Below, one piece after another: positions 2,617-61,284 of a DNA stretch of 64,000 bases. Source of the DNA: a virus; IMG/VR virus record IMGVR_UViG_3300028840_004217, positions 1 to 64,000 of that record; one strand, 5' to 3'. A program made the position numbers and the translations under genes. Position 1 is the first letter of the stretch, and each line of letters opens with the position of its first letter. Under the pieces are notes generated by a model. It made no database searches. It worked only from the letters and a program-made list of their open reading frames with translations, and was not told the DNA's origin.

Positions 2617-3519
2617 ATGATCATAGCGTTCTGTACCGAGCGACTTGGAACGTGGCAGAACCCGCCGATATGGGGCGATGAACGCCTCATCATCGGCGTC
2701 AAGAAATACCTCGAACAGCTCCCCGGCGTCACCCGCGTCGATCTCTACGACAAGAACACGGCTCTGGCCGGTGACGTGGACGTGAGCGTTCACATTCAGC
2801 CGGGCCGCAGTCACAAGCAACGCGCCAGGAAAACCGTCCTCTGGTACCAGAGCGATCACCCCTACTCGATGATCGACCTTCAGGAGCAGTACGACGGCCT
2901 TCTCCTGGCGTCTAACCACCACGCCGGTCTTGCCGCTGTAGAGTTACCGGACGGGTACCCGTGGCAGAGAGAACCCGTCGTATATACCGATCCTGATGAT
3001 TTCAGTGTGCGGCCCCGCACGGCCAACTACCCCGTGGTCTACCTCGGCAACAACATCAAGGGCAAGGACACGATGAACAGGTACATCATGCCCGCGCTGC
3101 CCCACGGCCTCCAGCTGTTCGGTTGGGGGTGGGACCACACGCCCCTGGCCGGTGTAAGCCACGGCCCCCTCAAAGGCTTTATGTCGACCACGCAGCTCTA
3201 CATGAACAGTGCGATCGTCCTGGCGTGCCACCTCCCGAAACACCGTGAGTGGGACATGCCCGTGGTGCGGGCGACGGAGGCGATGATGTGCCGCGCCCTG
3301 GTGATCAGCGATGACGTGGGCCGCGACATTTGGGGCGACAGGATCCTATACACCGAGGGCCGCAGCCACCTGGATGAGTTGCTGACCTACTGGCTGGCCC
3401 ACCAGGATGAACGCCACGAGTACATCGCGGGCAACCGGGCCTACGCGCTCCAGCACCTGTCGTTCGAGAAGCAGGCACGGCGCATGGTCCCGTTTTTCGA
3501 GAGGGTGATGAACGCATGA
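2617..3519 (+). CDS. glycosyltransferase (GT-B, CgeB-like)
   Basis: AAGGAG RBS; VVYLGN...LFGWGW...LYMNSAIVLACH...RATEAMMCRALVISD...HLSFEKQARRM matches the CgeB-type C-terminal domain. Confidence 0.75.
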   Translation: MIIAFCTERLGTWQNPPIWGDERLIIGVKKYLEQLPGVTRVDLYDKNTALAGDVDVSVHIQPGRSHKQRARKTVLWYQSDHPYSMIDLQEQYDGLLLASNHHAGLAAVELPDGYPWQREPVVYTDPDDFSVRPRTANYPVVYLGNNIKGKDTMNRYIMPALPHGLQLFGWGWDHTPLAGVSHGPLKGFMSTTQLYMNSAIVLACHLPKHREWDMPVVRATEAMMCRALVISDDVGRDIWGDRILYTEGRSHLDELLTYWLAHQDERHEYIAGNRAYALQHLSFEKQARRMVPFFERVMNA

Positions 3520-56266: not shown

Positions 56267-57223
56267 TCATAGGACGTTCCTTTCCACTCTGTCGGCCCGC
56301 GCCTCGTCGTCGGGATCGGGTTTCAGGCCGAGTTCTATGAACCAGTCGCAGGTGGACCCGCTGTGCTCCGTCAGGAACCGGGCCACCGCCTCCAGCTTGC
56401 GGGCCTCATGCTCGAACGTCACGCGTGCCCGTTCCAGGTGCTCCTCGTTGTGCTTGACGTCGGACGCGCAACCGGCCACCTTGTCCTTCTGCTGGTAGGC
56501 CGCCTCCTGCATGACCAGGATGACGTTCTCCTCCACCAGAGCCAGCCCCGTGATCTCGTCCTTCGGATCCTCCGCCTGTTGAGACACGACGGCCACCTCA
56601 CCCGTACCCGAACACACTGAGCAGTGTACGTCACCGCCGCCGATGATACCCGTCCCCCCGCACTCCGGACACTCCGTTGTTTTCATGATGGGCACTTCTC
56701 CTTTCCCTTGACATTGACAACACTCGTCGGCGCCCGTACCGTCACAGGCCGGGCATTTGATGAACTCCAGGATGCTGGCCACGCCCTTCGAGCTGGCCCA
56801 CGGTATCACGCCGCGCCCGCCGCACCAGGTACAGGCCGTCTGCCCGACCTTCCCGCCTTCATGCCCGCAGGCGGGACACGGGATGGTCTGTCCGCAGCCG
56901 TTGCAGACGTAACACCTTTCGTCCGGCTCCTCCTCATCGGTACTCCCCTTCAGTATGCCCTCACCCCGGCATTTGTAGCACGCCGTCGTCTTGCCGGGAT
57001 CGAGGACGACGGGTACGCACCCCAGGCCGCGACAGAACGGACACAGGGTATCCAGGGGCGTGGCTTTCGTCGTGCGGCCCATGCCCTCACACGGCGTACA
57101 GAAAACCAGCCCGCCCTTGCCCCCGCATTTGTAGCAGACCTGCGGCGCGCCGTCGTCATCGACCTGGCCCGTACCGTCACAGTTATTGCAGACCTCGGGT
57201 ATAGGCAACGTACTGCTGCACAT
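56267..57223 (-). CDS. protein with 12 DnaJ-type CxxCxGxG zinc-finger repeats
   Basis: CNNCDGTG, CYKCGGKG, CTPCEGMG, CPFCRGLG ... CSVCSGTG; no J domain (no HPD). Confidence 0.8.
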   Translation of the reverse strand: MCSSTLPIPEVCNNCDGTGQVDDDGAPQVCYKCGGKGGLVFCTPCEGMGRTTKATPLDTLCPFCRGLGCVPVVLDPGKTTACYKCRGEGILKGSTDEEEPDERCYVCNGCGQTIPCPACGHEGGKVGQTACTWCGGRGVIPWASSKGVASILEFIKCPACDGTGADECCQCQGKGEVPIMKTTECPECGGTGIIGGGDVHCSVCSGTGEVAVVSQQAEDPKDEITGLALVEENVILVMQEAAYQQKDKVAGCASDVKHNEEHLERARVTFEHEARKLEAVARFLTEHSGSTCDWFIELGLKPDPDDEARADRVERNVL

Positions 57224-57409: not shown

Positions 57410-58528
57410 TCACGAAACCCTCCCCATGCAGGCGTCATTGAAATACTTCAGGTCGTCATAGGCCAGTGGGTATTTCTCTCCGTAGTGCGCGTCCGTCATC
57501 GAGTTGATGATGAACTTGATGTCGCGCACCGACCCTATGAGGCGGCACATCGACCACGGGATGATCAGGCGGTCCGTCCGCGTGTCCTCGCCGTGCATGC
57601 CCTGTATGCCGAGCGTGGTGTGCTCGAACTGCAACGCGCTGTCGTGATCGAGGGGTACGTGCACCCACCGCACCCACTGGTCTTTGGGAGCCTCCAGGAT
57701 CGGAAGGGGGCTGGCCCGCTTGTTCCAGATCGGATCGACCATGAACACGGTATGCAGGCACCGGTTCATCTGCTGGAGCAGTTCGAGGTACAGCATCTTG
57801 TGCGGCTCGAACAGGAATGACTTCGCCGGACAGCCGGGGTTGACGCGCTTGGTCTCGAAGAACTCGACCCTGCCGTTCACGATGGCCACGCCGTCCACGT
57901 CGGCGGGCCACCCGCAGTACCACGGGTGGAGGACGTGATACACGAACAGCCTGTTGTGTATCAGGCTTTCACGCTCCGCGTCGTCCAGCTTGGTCAGCAC
58001 CGTTTCGAGGGCGGTAATACGCTGGTCCTCGGTGCGGTCCTTCTCCTCATGCTGTCGGGCGCCCTCCCACGGGCGCACCAGGGGCCGGTGATCTCTGGTC
58101 AGCCTGTAGGTCGTCAGAAGCTGGTCGATGGGCATTTTGTCCTCCCACCCTCCGTTCTGGTACAGGCGGCCTGTGAAGTCCTTCCGCTTCGCGTCGTACT
58201 GCGCGGCTACGACGACCTGGTTGTACTGTGACAGGGTGCGGGCCACGTGGGAATCGACCTGCATACGCCACGGCTCCGTCTTGGTGACGACGCGGAACCA
58301 GTACCGGGGCGGGCCGTCCTTCTCGTCGGGCATGTAATACCAGTTCGACGATACCAGGGACCCGTCGCCCACGGCGACGGCCAGGGACCGCAGGAACACG
58401 TCCTCGAATAGGAATGATTCGAGTCGCCGGCAGTTCTCATGCTGGAGCAGCTTGCGGGCGTCGTAGTGGCTGGCCGGGTCGAACTTGCCGTCCCTGAACT
58501 CCTGTATCACGTCACGCAGGGTATTCAT
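57410..58528 (-). CDS. putative PD-(D/E)XK nuclease-like protein
   Basis: WPADVDGVAIVNGRVEFFETKR fits the D...ExK core; GGAGG RBS. Confidence 0.5.
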   Translation of the reverse strand: MNTLRDVIQEFRDGKFDPASHYDARKLLQHENCRRLESFLFEDVFLRSLAVAVGDGSLVSSNWYYMPDEKDGPPRYWFRVVTKTEPWRMQVDSHVARTLSQYNQVVVAAQYDAKRKDFTGRLYQNGGWEDKMPIDQLLTTYRLTRDHRPLVRPWEGARQHEEKDRTEDQRITALETVLTKLDDAERESLIHNRLFVYHVLHPWYCGWPADVDGVAIVNGRVEFFETKRVNPGCPAKSFLFEPHKMLYLELLQQMNRCLHTVFMVDPIWNKRASPLPILEAPKDQWVRWVHVPLDHDSALQFEHTTLGIQGMHGEDTRTDRLIIPWSMCRLIGSVRDIKFIINSMTDAHYGEKYPLAYDDLKYFNDACMGRVS

Positions 58529-58537
58529 CAGTCCTCC

Positions 58538-58708
58538 TGTGGTTTGGTTTGGCTCGCATCACTTTACTCCGCGGAACGCTGCGACGGTGCGCGTTGGTCT
58601 GCGTGGAATGTGCTTGGCATTGCGCCGCTCCGGTCCGCCGTGCTTCGGTAGACATGGCAGGGTAGGGCAGTGGTACGCGACGCGTGAGTTGACATTGGTT
58701 TGCTCCGA
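58538..58708 (-). repeat. 5-nt periodic array E (34 pentamers, one 1-nt slip)
   Basis: + strand tgtgg tttgg tttgg ctcgc...; NNYGS register. Confidence 0.8.
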
Positions 58709-58712
58709 ATGA

Positions 58713-59000
58713 TCATCTGGTGATCGCTTTTCTCAACATCGCCATCTCGACTTCGAGCAGAATGACCTTTTCTACGAGTTTCGTTATACCCGACACCCGC
58801 ATCGGTTCTCCCGGCTTCAACTCGTATTCATCTATGAAAGCATTGATCGCTCGGTAGGCGTCGGCCTCCGTGGGTTGCGTCGGACCGGACAGGACATCGA
58901 GGGCCTTGCCGGTACCGACTGTCACCGCGCCCGTGAGCAGGTTCTTCAGAAAGGCCCGGCGTTCGGTGATGTCTTCATCGGTGAACATGATCTTGCGCAT
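58713..59000 (-). CDS. hypothetical protein between arrays
   Basis: GAGG RBS, MRKIMFTDED...; the ORF-track extension to 59204 is array sequence. Confidence 0.6.
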   Translation of the reverse strand: MRKIMFTDEDITERRAFLKNLLTGAVTVGTGKALDVLSGPTQPTEADAYRAINAFIDEYELKPGEPMRVSGITKLVEKVILLEVEMAMLRKAITR

Positions 59001-59010
59001 TGTAGATACC

Positions 59011-59136
59011 TCTGCTGTGGTTCGGTCAGCCCTGGAAAGGTCATGGTTGGCCTTGGTTTGGCACGCTATACAACGGGATGGTGCGCGAAACAGTGAAACG
59101 CTCCGGTTGGCTTCGGGTAGGTATGGCGTGCCGTGA
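59011..59136 (-). repeat. 5-nt periodic array D2 (25 pentamers)
   Basis: tctgc tgtgg ttcgg tcagc cctgg aaagg t catgg ttggc cttgg... Confidence 0.8.
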
Positions 59137-59167
59137 ACGCTGTATGTTGTCCTCCGTTCCTCCGATG

Positions 59168-59337
59168 TCCGCTTCGCTTGGGATTGCTCCGCTTTGGCGT
59201 GCAAAGCGCCGCAGCACTGCGCGAGGCCGAGGCTTGGTTATCTGCGCGTTGCCGGGGGCAGCTCTGATGTGCTCAGGTGCGCGTGGTTTCACTTTGGCGT
59301 GGACAGCTCCGCAAGGCAAAGGGGAGCGGAGGTACGT
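59168..59337 (-). repeat. 5-nt periodic array D1 (34 pentamers)
   Basis: tccgc ttcgc ttggg attgc tccgc tttgg cgtgc... in unbroken register, starting right after the stop codon of the Cas7-like gene. Confidence 0.8.
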
Positions 59338-59339
59338 TG

Positions 59340-59897
59340 TCATTTGCCCGGCTTCAGTATCACCGGCTCCCACCCCACGACGAGGAAACGACCGAAGGAG
59401 CCTTTCTTGGCGGGCCGGTATGCGCCGACACCCACCAGGCGGCCTGAGTCGTCGACCACCTTCTTCAACTGCTGCTCAGTGATCAGCTCGTCGTCGTACT
59501 CTACCTGGAATTTCAAACGCCACTCGTCGAAGCGCGGCCTGTAGCACCAGACCCTGCCGCCGCCTATGAACTTGTTGACGACGGTGCGCTCGTCGATGGC
59601 ATACTCGGTGACGCCCAGGAACAGCTTCTCGGGCGTGATGAAGATGCAGGCCGCGGCGATCTTGGCGAGGGTGGCGCGGCCCTTGCCCTTGCTGTAGGCC
59701 CCGCCGTCGATCACGCACCGCTTCACGTTCTCTGCGGGCACGTACAGCTCCTGCGTGTCCTCGTCGCGGTAGGCGGCGTGTTCGGCCTGTTCGTCTTTGG
59801 GCAGTTTGTCGAAGTTCTCGATGGGCTGTGAGGGAAAAGCGTGCATCAGCAACCCTGGCGGCAATCCTCTGATTTCAACATCGACTTTCGCTATCAT
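59340..59897 (-). CDS. solo Cas7/RAMP-like RNA-binding protein
   Basis: N-terminal strand VEIRGLPPGLLMH, LYVPAENVKRC (cf. RAMP YIPxxxxKG), RPRFDEW, C-terminal Gly-rich loop GRLVGVGAYRPAKKGSFGRF. Confidence 0.75.
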   Translation of the reverse strand: MIAKVDVEIRGLPPGLLMHAFPSQPIENFDKLPKDEQAEHAAYRDEDTQELYVPAENVKRCVIDGGAYSKGKGRATLAKIAAACIFITPEKLFLGVTEYAIDERTVVNKFIGGGRVWCYRPRFDEWRLKFQVEYDDELITEQQLKKVVDDSGRLVGVGAYRPAKKGSFGRFLVVGWEPVILKPGK

Positions 59898-59910
59898 GGT
59901 GCGGTACCTC

Positions 59911-60040
59911 CTGGCGGTGGTTCGGTTTGGTGTGATCTGCGTTGCGCAGGATCACAGGGGTTGGCAGAACAAAGGTACGTCTGGCTTTGCTGTACATTGG
60001 TTTGCGTTGCCGTTGATCGCGACGGCAGGCCGCGCTGTGA
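59911..60040 (-). repeat. 5-nt periodic array C (26 pentamers)
   Basis: ctggc ggtgg ttcgg tttgg tgtga tctgc gttgc...; ends at the RBS of the Cas7-like gene. Confidence 0.8.
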
Positions 60041-60081
60041 TCGTATGATTTATGTCATGTGGTCGCTCCCCCCTCTCGGAC

Positions 60082-60402
60082 TGTGCTTTGGCAGGCGTCG
60101 GTCGGGCCAGCGTAGGCTTGCAGCGACATGGCCTGGAACGCTTTGACGTGCTCGGCAATACTCTGCTTGGATACGCAATGATTGAGTTGGCAATGAAAGG
60201 CTTCGCTCGGCTTCGCTGATCGTGGCCTTGCCGTGGCACGCCACGCAATGCGATGCGTCTGCCGTGGCACGCGACGCTTTGGTTCTCTATGCACTGGTAT
60301 GGCGTACTCCGCTGTGGCTGTCGTTGGGACGCTTTGCTTTGCAGGTCTATGAATAGGTTGGCACTGCTGCGTTTCGGGGTGCAGCGCATTGTTACGCTAC
60401 GC
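60082..60402 (-). repeat. 5-nt periodic array B (35+29 pentamers, 1-nt slip at 60257)
   Basis: G at pentamer position 4 in 32 of the first 35 units (manual count). Confidence 0.85.
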
Positions 60403-60858
60403 ATCGTAATCCTCATGATCTTCAAGGTCTCCGAGAACCCGGCGACGCTGTTCACGGAGAATCCAGCCCTTCAACGACAGACCCTCCGGTATGGCACCCG
60501 TCGCTTTCAGCGCGTCGTATTCCTGTATCGTTTCCTTCCGGTGTATATCGGCCCACGAATCGACCGTGTGGTCCTTCGGTATCTCGCCGGCACGCTGCGC
60601 CGCCAGAAAACTCACGAAGGTGCGGACCCGGTTCGACACCTGTTCTACGGACAGGCCGGGCGGCAGGCACGTCTGCGCGCACATGTAGCCGACTTCATCA
60701 TCCGCCTGAAACCGGGTCCAGCCGCTTTCCACGTTCGGGTCGCTCTGTTGCTCCCGCCCGCAGACGCCGCACCGCATCATCTCACCGGAGAACAGGCCGG
60801 TGGAGAAGGTGGGTTTCGATTTCCGTTTCTTCTTTTTCCTGCGTTTCGGCTTGATCAC
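60397..60858 (-). CDS. hypothetical protein (basic N terminus, CxxC) between arrays
   Basis: GGGAG RBS plus GTG; KPKRRKKKKRK...CGVCG...CAQTC. Confidence 0.6.
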   Translation of the reverse strand: MIKPKRRKKKKRKSKPTFSTGLFSGEMMRCGVCGREQQSDPNVESGWTRFQADDEVGYMCAQTCLPPGLSVEQVSNRVRTFVSFLAAQRAGEIPKDHTVDSWADIHRKETIQEYDALKATGAIPEGLSLKGWILREQRRRVLGDLEDHEDYDA

Positions 60859-60877
60859 TATGTACTCCCGTCTGAAC

Positions 60878-61012
60878 TGTGGTTTGCAGTACTCGGCTTT
60901 ACCTCGCATATCAAGACGTCGGATCGCCAAACACCGCCCTGCTATGGCCTGCTTTGCTCGGGTTCGCCATGCTGCTCTATGCTACGCAAAGCGTCACCGC
61001 GCTATGCCCCGC
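60878..61012 (-). repeat. 5-nt periodic array A (27 pentamers)
   Basis: Minus strand gcggg gcata gcgcg gtgac gcttt gcgta gcata ... gcaaa ccaca; exactly 135 nt in register. Confidence 0.85.
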
Positions 61013-61284
61013 AAAAGTTCACCTGGGCTGGCCTCGACCAGCATCACTGTAATCACAAGTCAATAACTTCATCCTGGGGTGTCAGGTCCTCCAGCACCAC
61101 GTCGGGCGGCTGGCTGTATACCCCCTCACCCGCCGTCAGCTTCCACAGGGTGTCCTCGAAGGTCACATAGACACTTCGATTGTTGTTCACCTGGAGGGCA
61201 TTGAACACCTTGCCGCATACCTGGTGAAAGTTCTTCTTGGCGGCTTCGAGCGCGTTCAGCATTTCAAAATACTCTTTGGCGAGT

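What the first reader, a model, noticed from the sequence alone, without database searches (positions are those of the whole stretch)
57410..61012. Solo Cas7/RAMP-like gene embedded in six 5-nt-periodic arrays: candidate RNA-guided system with a non-contiguous guide code
Seen: every intergenic gap from 58538 to 61012 is filled with sequence in strict 5-nt register (blocks 60878-61012, 60082-60402, 59911-60040, 59168-59337, 59011-59136, 58538-58708; about 210 pentamers). Each unit is a semi-constant triplet plus two variable bases: (G/C)C(A/G)-NN on the gene strand, NN-YG(G/C) on +, where GG is usually followed by a pyrimidine. There are no CRISPR direct repeats and no cas1/2/5/6. The central 185-aa gene has RAMP/Cas7 features, including the C-terminal Gly-rich loop. 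Established: Cas7 polymerises along crRNA with a fixed per-subunit footprint. Inference: one subunit binds each pentamer, the constant bases act as the handle, and the variable dinucleotides jointly spell a gapped target. From memory (unverified), this resembles recently reported viral VIPR-type systems with GGY/NN RNAs, but here the constant triplet is different and more degenerate, and the arrays are interleaved with genes.
Basis: partly seen in the sequence, partly recalled or inferred. Interest (0 to 1): 0.96.

Follow-up and report, generated by a model that had tools for sequence, protein, structure and literature searches.

The report
Phage VIPR locus with degenerate arrays
A complete 92-kb marine phage carries a member of the VIPR family (published in 2026): a lone Cas7-like protein plus about 210 five-base guide-RNA repeats. 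Its one unusual feature is that the first fixed base of each repeat is lost, and the protein residue that reads that base is lost too.

Summary
All four intergenic gaps between 58529 and 61052 have a 5-nt period (z 6.7-11.2; 0 of 1000 shuffles reach it). 1044 of 1216 nt lie in nine in-register runs totalling 210 pentamers. The CDSs show only a 3-nt period.

The 185-aa gene is a Vipr protein. It matches the solved SUSP1 Vipr (PDB 36pp, E=1.3e-10), and its model matches Csm3/Cas7. The locus is therefore a VIPR system (bioRxiv 10.64898/2026.04.26.720920), not a new class. Alternative repeats such as YNNNG are already in print, and this scan has noted VIPR-like loci on other DNA many times.

What differs:
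- 36 related loci carry canonical GGY/NN arrays on the vipr strand. Here the vipr-strand unit is n-[G/C]-Y-N-N: G1 is random, G2 is 62% G, and Y3 is 96% pyrimidine.
- The G1-reading Asp (SUSP1 D177) is Ala here. It is Asp or Glu in all 119 homologs.
- The array load is the largest of 35 loci, and three unrelated genes sit inside it.

No targets and no RNA data were found. Strand, register and activity are inferred.

The parts
59340..59897 (-). vipr gene, 185 aa (lone RAMP protein). Its G-loop reads GVGAYRPAKKGSFGR, with Ala159 at the position of SUSP1 Asp177.
   Evidence: PDB 36pp_D 'SUSP1 Vipr protein' E=1.3e-10. phrog_4652 E=1e-20. AF2 model pLDDT 89; best Foldseek match Csm3 6ifl_F, E=1.6e-7. 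Residue mapping.
60878..61042 (-). Array, 33 pentamers, between the 81-aa and 153-aa genes. It ends ...GCAAA CCACA and is followed by an SD.
60258..60402 (-). Array, 29 pentamers. It starts at the stop codon of the 153-aa gene and is 1 nt out of register with the next run.
60082..60256 (-). Array, 35 pentamers, ending CCAAA GCACA.
60036..60081 (-). Non-periodic spacer: a G-rich SD-like run, a two-codon mini-ORF (ATG ACA TAA, 60058-60050), then 14 nt.
   Evidence: Sequence read. Function unknown.
59911..60035 (-). Array, 25 pentamers, ending CCAAA CCGAA CCACC GCCAG directly before the vipr SD and start codon.
59168..59332 (-). Array, 33 pentamers, starting 7 nt after the vipr stop codon.
59132..59167 (-). 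Non-periodic spacer with two GGAGG motifs and no ORF after them.
59011..59131 (-). Arrays of 17 and 6 pentamers (59047-59131 and 59011-59040) with a 1-nt register slip between them, ending CCGAA CCACA GCAGA before the 95-aa gene.
58538..58703 (-). Arrays of 18 and 14 pentamers (58614-58703 and 58538-58607) with a 1-nt register slip between them, ending CCAAA CCAAA CCACA-GGAGG before the 372-aa gene.
60397..60858 (-). Embedded gene, 153 aa (Lys-rich N-terminus, CxxC). No known family and no relative next to vipr elsewhere.
58713..59000 (-). Embedded gene, 95 aa, with a borderline twin-arginine signal (RRAFLK).
   Evidence: TIGR01409, 16.9 bits against a cut-off of 16.7. No relative in related loci.
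57410..58528 (-). Last gene of the block, 372 aa. Possible PD-(D/E)xK nuclease core; this is a lead only.
   Evidence: The Atlas model resembles PDDEXK_14/RecU clusters (TM 0.32 by the query, 0.67 by the row). A D...E-x-K motif is visible in the translation. No homologs. The AF2 single-sequence model failed, pLDDT 35.

Best explanation
This is a VIPR (Viral Interference Programmable Repeat) system in a complete 92-kb phage.

Proposed working. The 185-aa protein is a Vipr RAMP. The roughly 1.05 kb of pentamer tracts are vrRNA genes. They are most likely transcribed on the same (-) strand as vipr, as part of one operon running from about 61.05 to 57.4 kb. By homology with the solved SUSP1 complex, one Vipr protomer binds each pentamer. 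The protomers hold the fixed bases and expose two variable bases per unit, and these pair with double-stranded DNA of a competing mobile element while skipping every third target base, which silences it.

The variant. Read on the vipr strand, the unit is n-[G/C]-Y-N-N. The first guanine of the canonical GGY handle is no longer conserved, the second is kept in 62% of units (C in 30%), and the pyrimidine is kept in 96%. In parallel, the Asp that hydrogen-bonds G1 in SUSP1 (D177) is Ala159 here. The G2 contact (Arg120) and the Y3-pocket Arg161 are kept.

Shown here: the periodicity, protein homology and fold, conservation of arrays next to vipr in relatives, the motif statistics and the residue substitution.

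Inferred: the transcribed strand, the register, RNP formation, the 1-nt-skip rule and the silencing function.
For: Protein:
- Matches PDB 36pp SUSP1 Vipr at E=1.3e-10 and phrog_4652 at 1e-20.
- The model (pLDDT 89) matches Csm3/Cas7.
- It has 234 homologs.

Context:
- The genome is a complete virus with direct terminal repeats and has no cas1, cas2 or cas6.
- 36 of 37 related loci carry period-5 tracts abutting vipr, all GG-periodic on the vipr strand. The type II reference phage heid is the same.

Strand and register:
- Read on the - strand in register G1=n1, G2=S, Y3=Y, the window's N4/N5 composition fits 1,529 canonical units from 34 loci (chi-square p=0.38 and 0.03).
- The + strand reading gives p=1e-16 and 4e-19.
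- The - reading is 146 bits more likely overall.
- phiHSIC carries GC-type arrays on its vipr strand.
- Each array runs from a stop codon to the SD of the next - strand gene.

Covariation: position 159 is Asp in 113 and Glu in 6 of 119 homologs, and Ala only here. H19, K31, R120 and R161 are kept. The residue roles come from 10.64898/2026.04.26.720927.

Not neutral decay: the three handle positions are conserved very unequally (20%, 62% and 96%), and register holds for runs of up to 35 units.
Against: - There is no direct evidence of transcription, strand or processing.
- On the + strand the most conserved base is G (85%), and 45 of 57 GG units are followed by Y, which reproduces the canonical GGY.
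- D177A abolished silencing in SUSP1.
- The window's Vipr deviates at 8 of 64 near-invariant columns, the most of 120 proteins (median 1). Loss of function is therefore possible.
- No constant 3' tail or repeated leader separates the guides.
- The shared array end (CCACA-GGAGG) resembles the phage's general CACAAGGAG leader, which occurs at gene starts across the genome.
- No vap-like partner is conserved.
Confidence: 0.8

Rival explanations
1. A decaying VIPR locus. The Asp-to-Ala change has inactivated Vipr, and the arrays are eroding relics that no longer make working guides.
For: D177A abolished silencing in SUSP1. The window's protein is the most divergent of 120 at near-invariant columns, 8 against a median of 1. 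Only about 12% of units would still read GGY on the vipr strand. Eight register breaks occur within 210 units.
Against: Erosion is not uniform. Y3 stays 96% pyrimidine and G2 92% G/C, while G1 sits at a random level. Runs of up to 175 nt keep register. The ORF is intact and keeps every column that is invariant across the 31-sequence alignment. A complete phage genome holds 1.05 kb of these tracts, more units than any of 34 relatives.
Confidence: 0.12
2. The guides are transcribed from the + strand, antisense to vipr and its neighbours, with a handle G-[C/G]-y that is a loosened GGY.
For: On the + strand G is 85% conserved, with A as the main alternative. GG is followed by Y in 79% of cases. 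In relatives, GC is the joint commonest departure from GG (42 of 1,529 units, level with TG). The most canonical units (TGTGG TTTGG TTTGG) sit at the + strand start of each array.
Against: All 36 relatives and the type II reference have arrays on the vipr strand. The N4/N5 composition on + departs from the family profile at p=1e-16 and 4e-19. This reading would keep G1 best conserved even though its Asp contact is lost, and would free Y3 (64% Y) even though Arg161 of its pocket is kept. Each of four gaps would need its own promoter inside the 5' end of a - strand CDS. Within the four gaps the scan found one promoter-like site on the + strand, at the far (3') end of one gap.
Confidence: 0.07
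3. The tracts are not guide genes at all. They are translated low-complexity ORFs or a DNA-structural periodicity.
For: Long stop-free frames cross the arrays, for example 59952-60455 (-), 167 aa.
Against: There is no lag-3 signal in the gaps, and a 5-nt period cannot be held by codon selection. The same tracts accompany vipr in 36 unrelated contexts.
Confidence: 0.01

Closest known systems
VIPR systems, type II exemplar Escherichia phage SUSP1 (bioRxiv 10.64898/2026.04.26.720920; structures 10.64898/2026.04.26.720927; PDB 36pp)
   Same: Both have a lone Vipr RAMP of about 185-200 aa, homologous by sequence (E=1.3e-10). Both have 5-nt tandem arrays in the flanking intergenic DNA, a phage context, and no cas genes or CRISPR array. 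H17, K33, R138 and R179 equivalents are conserved.
   Different: SUSP1 has discrete vrRNAs of about 100 nt, with 9-16 GGY/NN units, their own promoters and a pseudoknot tail, plus a vap1 partner. Here there are 210 units in long runs without tails. The handle is n-S-Y, D177 is Ala, W178 is Tyr, no vap-like gene is recognisable, and three unrelated genes sit inside the arrays.
VIPR loci with alternative repeats (NNNGG, YNNNG, NNNNG), 'staggered' arrays with 1-nt offsets, and non-canonical 5-mers (10.64898/2026.04.26.720920 methods and fig. S18 legend; 10.64898/2026.10.21.760802)
   Same: The unit G-Y-N-N-N is the published YNNNG form. Long tail-less runs with 1-nt register shifts fit the description of staggered arrays.
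   Different: The G is only 62% (C 30%), with a purine before CC units. The papers' figures and tables could not be read, so it is unknown whether the Asp-to-Ala covariation or this exact consensus is already listed.
The window's own Vipr subfamily (36 loci in IMG/VR viruses and MAGs, 38-57% identity; L002-L037)
   Same: The protein family and G-loop KKGxFGR are shared. Arrays abut vipr on one or both sides, often running straight into its SD. No accessory gene is conserved.
   Different: The relatives have G1 94%, G2 95.5%, Y3 98% and 11-163 units (median 36). The window has 20%, 62%, 96% and 210 units.
Listonella phage phiHSIC ORF22 locus (AY772740; L276)
   Same: It is a cultured phage with a distant Vipr and three arrays on the vipr strand whose fixed bases start G-C, like the window's - strand units.
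   Different: phiHSIC has three fixed bases (G 100%, C 86%, A 90%) plus NN, in 7-11-unit guides with tails. Its Vipr keeps the Asp but lacks the His17 and Arg138 equivalents.
CRISPR type III Csm3/Cmr4 (Cas7) backbone subunits
   Same: The RRM/RAMP fold with thumb and G-loop is shared (Foldseek E=1.6e-7, TM 0.52-0.65).
   Different: Identity is 10-14%. There is no CRISPR array and no Cas10, Cas5, Cas6, Cas1 or Cas2. The footprint is 5 nt, not 6 nt.

Membership tests
VIPR system | Vipr protein: a RAMP (RRM core, thumb, Gly-rich loop) homologous to published Vipr proteins | tested here: met
   PDB 36pp_D SUSP1 Vipr E=1.3e-10. phrog_4652 1e-20. AF2 pLDDT 89 with Csm3-like fold.
VIPR system | Intergenic tandem 5-nt repeats beside vipr, with a fixed handle (GGY or a related consensus) alternating with variable bases | tested here: met
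   210 units, z 6.7-11.2. The consensus is n-S-Y-N-N, which is the published YNNNG kind.
VIPR system | No CRISPR array and no cas adaptation or processing genes | tested here: met
   No PF01867, PF09827 or PF01881 in the complete genome. TRF found no CRISPR-like repeat.
VIPR system | Viral or proviral context | tested here: met
   G000 is a 92,049-bp virus record with direct terminal repeats, 100% complete.
VIPR system | Residues that read the handle: H17 and D177 (G1), R138 and W178 (G2), R179 and neighbours (Y3) | tested here: not met
   H19, R120 and R161 are kept. D177 is Ala159 and W178 is Tyr160. This matches the loss of G1 in the arrays, so it is read as a variant rather than an exclusion.
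VIPR system | vap accessory gene next to vipr | tested here: inconclusive
   The neighbours have no family and no relatives in 37 loci. The subfamily has no conserved partner. The 372-aa protein is only a weak PD-(D/E)xK lead.
VIPR system | vrRNA with a conserved structured 3' tail | tested here: inconclusive
   No repeated tail or leader was found, and there is no Rfam hit or ribozyme. The shared ends CCRAA-CCACA overlap the phage's general SD leader.
VIPR system | vrRNAs are expressed and co-purify with Vipr | not testable with these tools
   No RNA run is listed for this DNA.
VIPR system | Targets follow the 1-nt-skip rule in competing mobile elements | tested here: inconclusive
   The held DNA gave nothing above chance under any skip or register. 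Exact IMG/VR scans found nothing that extends.
CRISPR-Cas class 1 (Cas7/Csm3) | RAMP backbone subunit encoded with other cas genes and a CRISPR array | tested here: not met
   There is fold similarity only. No cas genes or array are present.

The most novel reading that the evidence does not exclude
With the G1-reading Asp lost, the former G1 position has become a third programmable base. This Vipr would then hold only two bases (S-Y) per unit and present three. That would be a 2+3 code with a different target rule, for example contiguous triplets or NNN plus a skip, and more information per protomer than published VIPRs.
Probability: 0.12. Interest if true: 0.7.

Novelty: new member of a known kind. 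Interest (0 to 1): 0.35.

Why it matters
Taken as a further example, it adds little. VIPR was described in 2026, degenerate handles are in print, and this scan has met such loci many times.

Its value is as a natural specificity variant. Among 120 related proteins it is the only one lacking the acidic residue that reads G1, and it alone has arrays in which G1 is free while Y3 and most of G2 are kept. That gives a direct, cheap test of how Vipr reads its handle. Swapping Ala159 and Asp should show whether handle requirements shift. It would also show whether the handle can be shortened to free an extra programmable base, which is useful for engineering VIPR tools.

The locus also shows that large tail-less arrays can be threaded through an operon of unrelated genes.

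Tried and rejected
Loci were obtained with `search for related loci` instead.
- RNA evidence: no RNA holder is listed for this stretch, so `read laying` was not used.
- Targets in held DNA: sliding 10-unit windows from all arrays, two registers, skips 0-3, against the phage's own genome (arrays masked) plus 33 related loci. Best scores were 14-18 of 20 under every model, which is chance level with no skip preferred.
- Targets in IMG/VR: two exact 9-unit patterns (NN plus 1 skip) gave 0 hits. These scans were few, exact and truncated, so they say nothing about whether targets exist.
- A search for close relatives using the window's own peptides in IMG/VR found none. The nearest protein among 5.8 billion is 57% identical, so no sister locus is available to test selection.
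- The AF2 model of the 372-aa protein without an alignment failed (pLDDT 35). It has no homologs.
- Pfam, PHROGs, NCBIfam and PADLOC gave nothing solid for the neighbours.
- Rfam gave nothing at the gathering level and no hammerhead. ARAGORN found no tRNA.
- The promoter/terminator scan was uninformative: 2 promoter-like sites against 0.8 expected, and 1 terminator-like site against 3.2 expected.
- The idea that the conserved array ends are a vrRNA tail was weakened, because CACA(A)GGAG precedes many start codons across the genome.
- The simple rule 'loss of H17 or D177 goes with loss of G1' was not extended to phiHSIC. Its motif GCA/NN fits better with G1 kept (Asp kept) and G2 changed (Arg138 lost).


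Full report

Yes. In the four intergenic gaps 58529-58712, 59001-59339, 59898-60396 and 60859-61052, identity at lags 5, 10, 15 and 20 is 0.32-0.45 against a baseline of about 0.17-0.29. The four coding regions show only the codon period. Against 1000 shuffles per gap the period-5 score has z = 6.7, 8.8, 11.2 and 8.9, and no shuffle reaches it. Across the 64-kb window a score above 0.15 occurs only at 58.46-61.08 kb.

A simple HMM places 210 pentamers in nine in-register runs covering 1044 of the 1216 intergenic bases. Abutting runs differ by 1 nt of register. Two short non-periodic spacers (60036-60081 and 59132-59167) carry SD-like G-runs, and the first is followed by a two-codon mini-ORF. 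On the + strand the unit is N-N-N-G-S, with G 85%, then C 62% or G 30%. GG is followed by a pyrimidine in 45 of 57 cases, against 52 of 98 after GC (Fisher p=0.002).

**2. What is the gene?**

The 185-aa ORF at 59340-59897 (-) matches one solved structure by sequence: 36pp chain D, 'SUSP1 Vipr protein', E=1.3e-10. It also matches phrog_4652 at 1e-20. An AlphaFold model built from 31 homologs (pLDDT 89, pTM 0.83) resembles Csm3/Cas7 subunits of type III complexes (6ifl_F E=1.6e-7; TM 0.5-0.65; 10-14% identity).

The family, however, is Vipr, the effector of VIPR systems described in 2026: 10.64898/2026.04.26.720920, structures in 10.64898/2026.04.26.720927, and biology in 10.64898/2026.10.15.759431.

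The host record is a complete 92,049-bp virus with direct terminal repeats. It lacks cas1, cas2 and cas6.

**3. Relatives**

The protein has at least 234 homologs, and the nearest is 57% identical. I fetched 37 related loci from IMG/VR and MAGs. In 36 of them period-5 tracts abut vipr upstream, downstream or both. In every one the tracts are GG-periodic on the vipr strand, as in the type II reference phage heid.

Pooled over 34 loci (1,529 units):

| Position | Composition |
|---|---|
| G1 | 94% G |
| G2 | 95.5% G |
| Y3 | 98% pyrimidine (C 66%, T 32%) |
| N4 | A 37%, G 32%, C 15%, T 16% |
| N5 | A 37%, G 24.5%, T 23.5%, C 15% |

Relatives hold 11-163 units per locus, median 36. The window, with 210 units, holds the most. 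It is also the only locus where the conserved G lies on the strand opposite vipr.

No protein is conserved next to vipr in this subfamily. The only recurring 'ORFs' are frames through the arrays themselves. None of the window's neighbours has a relative in the 37 loci.

**4. Which strand and register?**

GC is its own reverse complement, so the commonest unit does not reveal the strand. Three lines of evidence favour the vipr (-) strand.

First, orientation: all relatives and phiHSIC have their arrays on the vipr strand.

Second, composition. I aligned the - strand to the canonical unit as follows:

| Canonical position | Window, - strand |
|---|---|
| G1 | A 42%, T 21%, G 20%, C 16% |
| G2 | G 62%, C 30% |
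| Y3 | C 85%, T 11% |
| N4 | A 40%, G 31% |
| N5 | A 38%, T 23% |

In this register N4 and N5 match the family profile (chi-square p=0.38 and 0.03 over all 210 units). The + strand reading departs at p=1e-16 and 4e-19. Overall, the - reading is 146 bits more likely under the family profile.

Third, protein and RNA agree. The structure paper assigns G1 to H17 and D177, G2 to R138 and W178, and Y3 to a pocket that includes R179. After mapping through an alignment with the SUSP1-like heid protein, whose residues match the published numbering except at position 175 (Val where the paper names Thr), the window keeps H19, R120 and R161. It has Ala159 for D177 and Tyr160 for W178. Among 119 homologs, position 159 is Asp in 113 and Glu in 6, and never anything else.

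So the one protein without the G1-reading carboxylate sits beside the one array set without G1, while the positions whose main contacts (Arg120, Arg161) are kept stay constrained. On the + strand reading the opposite would hold: G1 would be best conserved and Y3 free.

The strand assignment remains an inference, which I put at about 0.9 given that the locus is active. Under either strand, the same two base pairs per unit correspond to N4N5, so the predicted double-stranded target is the same.

**5. Is it working or decaying?**

D177A abolished silencing in SUSP1. The window's protein also departs from 8 of 64 near-invariant columns, the most in the set (Q59K, A66G, T112G, R118C, R145K, L158G, D159A, F160Y).

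Against decay:
- The three handle positions are kept very unequally (20%, 62% and 96% of the canonical base class). Neutral erosion would not produce that.
- Register holds for runs of up to 35 units.
- The ORF is intact.
- A complete phage genome carries more of this sequence than any relative.

I put a non-functional relic at about 0.12.

**6. Architecture**

Each array runs from the stop codon of one - strand gene to the SD of the next, which suggests one transcript from about 61.05 to 57.4 kb. The array ends share CCRAA-CCACA before GGAG. However, CACA(A)GGAG precedes at least 20 start codons elsewhere in this genome. This shared end may therefore be the phage's usual translation leader rather than a vrRNA tail.

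No repeated tail, leader, ribozyme or Rfam family was found. The 1-nt register shifts recall the 'staggered' arrays of the discovery paper, but I could not see that figure.

The embedded genes are:
- 153 aa, with no family.
- 95 aa, with a borderline twin-arginine signal.
- 372 aa, with a D...E-x-K motif and a weak structural likeness to PD-(D/E)xK nucleases. This is a lead only; my model failed.

**7. Targets**

None were found. The details are under Tried and rejected. The searches were too narrow to count as evidence either way.

**8. Comparison and novelty**

The locus meets the defining features of VIPR that could be tested: protein homology and fold, pentamer arrays with a published kind of consensus (YNNNG), viral context, and no cas genes. 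It fails one feature, the G1-reading Asp, in a way that matches its arrays.

Non-canonical handles are also reported in 10.64898/2026.10.21.760802. Earlier notes of this scan describe many VIPR loci, including some with C as the fixed base on the gene strand.

It is therefore a new member of a known kind. Its specific interest is the natural Asp-to-Ala change coupled to loss of G1. phiHSIC offers a second, different example: GCA/NN arrays, Asp kept, and the Arg138 and His17 equivalents lost. The boldest reading still open is that the freed position has become a third programmable base. Nothing here tests that.

Noticed in passing
L276:2486-3410 (Listonella phage phiHSIC, AY772740): ORF22 is a distant Vipr. 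Downstream on the same strand are three arrays of 7-11 units reading G-C-A-N-N, each followed by a non-repeat tail. The annotated ORF21 on the opposite strand lies over them and is probably spurious. The protein has Asn for His17 and Ala for Arg138 but keeps the Asp.
   Followed up: partly
L278:1658-1772 and 2997-3096 (Gordonia phage MakoManhole): Canonical GGY/NN arrays beside gp78 (Vipr) and gp77 ('DNA binding protein') are each preceded by a tRNA T-arm-like element (GGTTCGACTCC flanked by a stem). ARAGORN calls no tRNA there. It may be a processing signal.
   Followed up: partly
whole genome G000, e.g. 14177, 16338, 17774, 18227, 23103, 25688, 48523, 48780, 51543, 51994, 53869, 54625 (- strand): CACAAGGAG, an extended Shine-Dalgarno leader, sits 4-12 nt before about 20 start codons. 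The ends of the pentamer arrays resemble it.
   Followed up: partly
window 60050-60058 (-): A two-codon mini-ORF (ATG ACA TAA) follows a strong G-rich SD-like run between two arrays. A second spacer at 59132-59167 has two GGAGG motifs with no ORF after them.
   Followed up: no
window 58713-59000 (-): A 95-aa protein inside the array block has a borderline twin-arginine export signal (RRAFLK; TIGR01409, 16.9 bits against a cut-off of 16.7).
   Followed up: no
window 57410-58528 (-): A 372-aa orphan protein has a D...E-x-K motif (DVDG...EFFETK) and a weak Atlas structural likeness to PDDEXK_14/RecU. It is possibly a nuclease at the end of the VIPR operon.
   Followed up: partly
window 56267-57223 (-): A 318-aa protein is built of repeated DnaJ-type CxxCxGxG zinc-finger units (PF00684, E=2.5e-13).
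   Followed up: no
L026:5368-5494 and L027:6346-6471: A different 5-nt tandem repeat (CTAGA/CCAGA) lies about 0.9-1.8 kb downstream of vipr in two related viral loci. It is not of the GGY kind.
   Followed up: no
L034:4673-5537 (Chloroflexota MAG, 405-kb contig): Seven tandem vrRNA modules lie downstream of vipr. Each has a conserved leader (CCAAAGGGCTTTCGGGTCAG), 11-15 GGY/NN units and a conserved tail (GGATACCACTCCCTGACGGAGAG). This is a much more modular layout than the window's.
   Followed up: no
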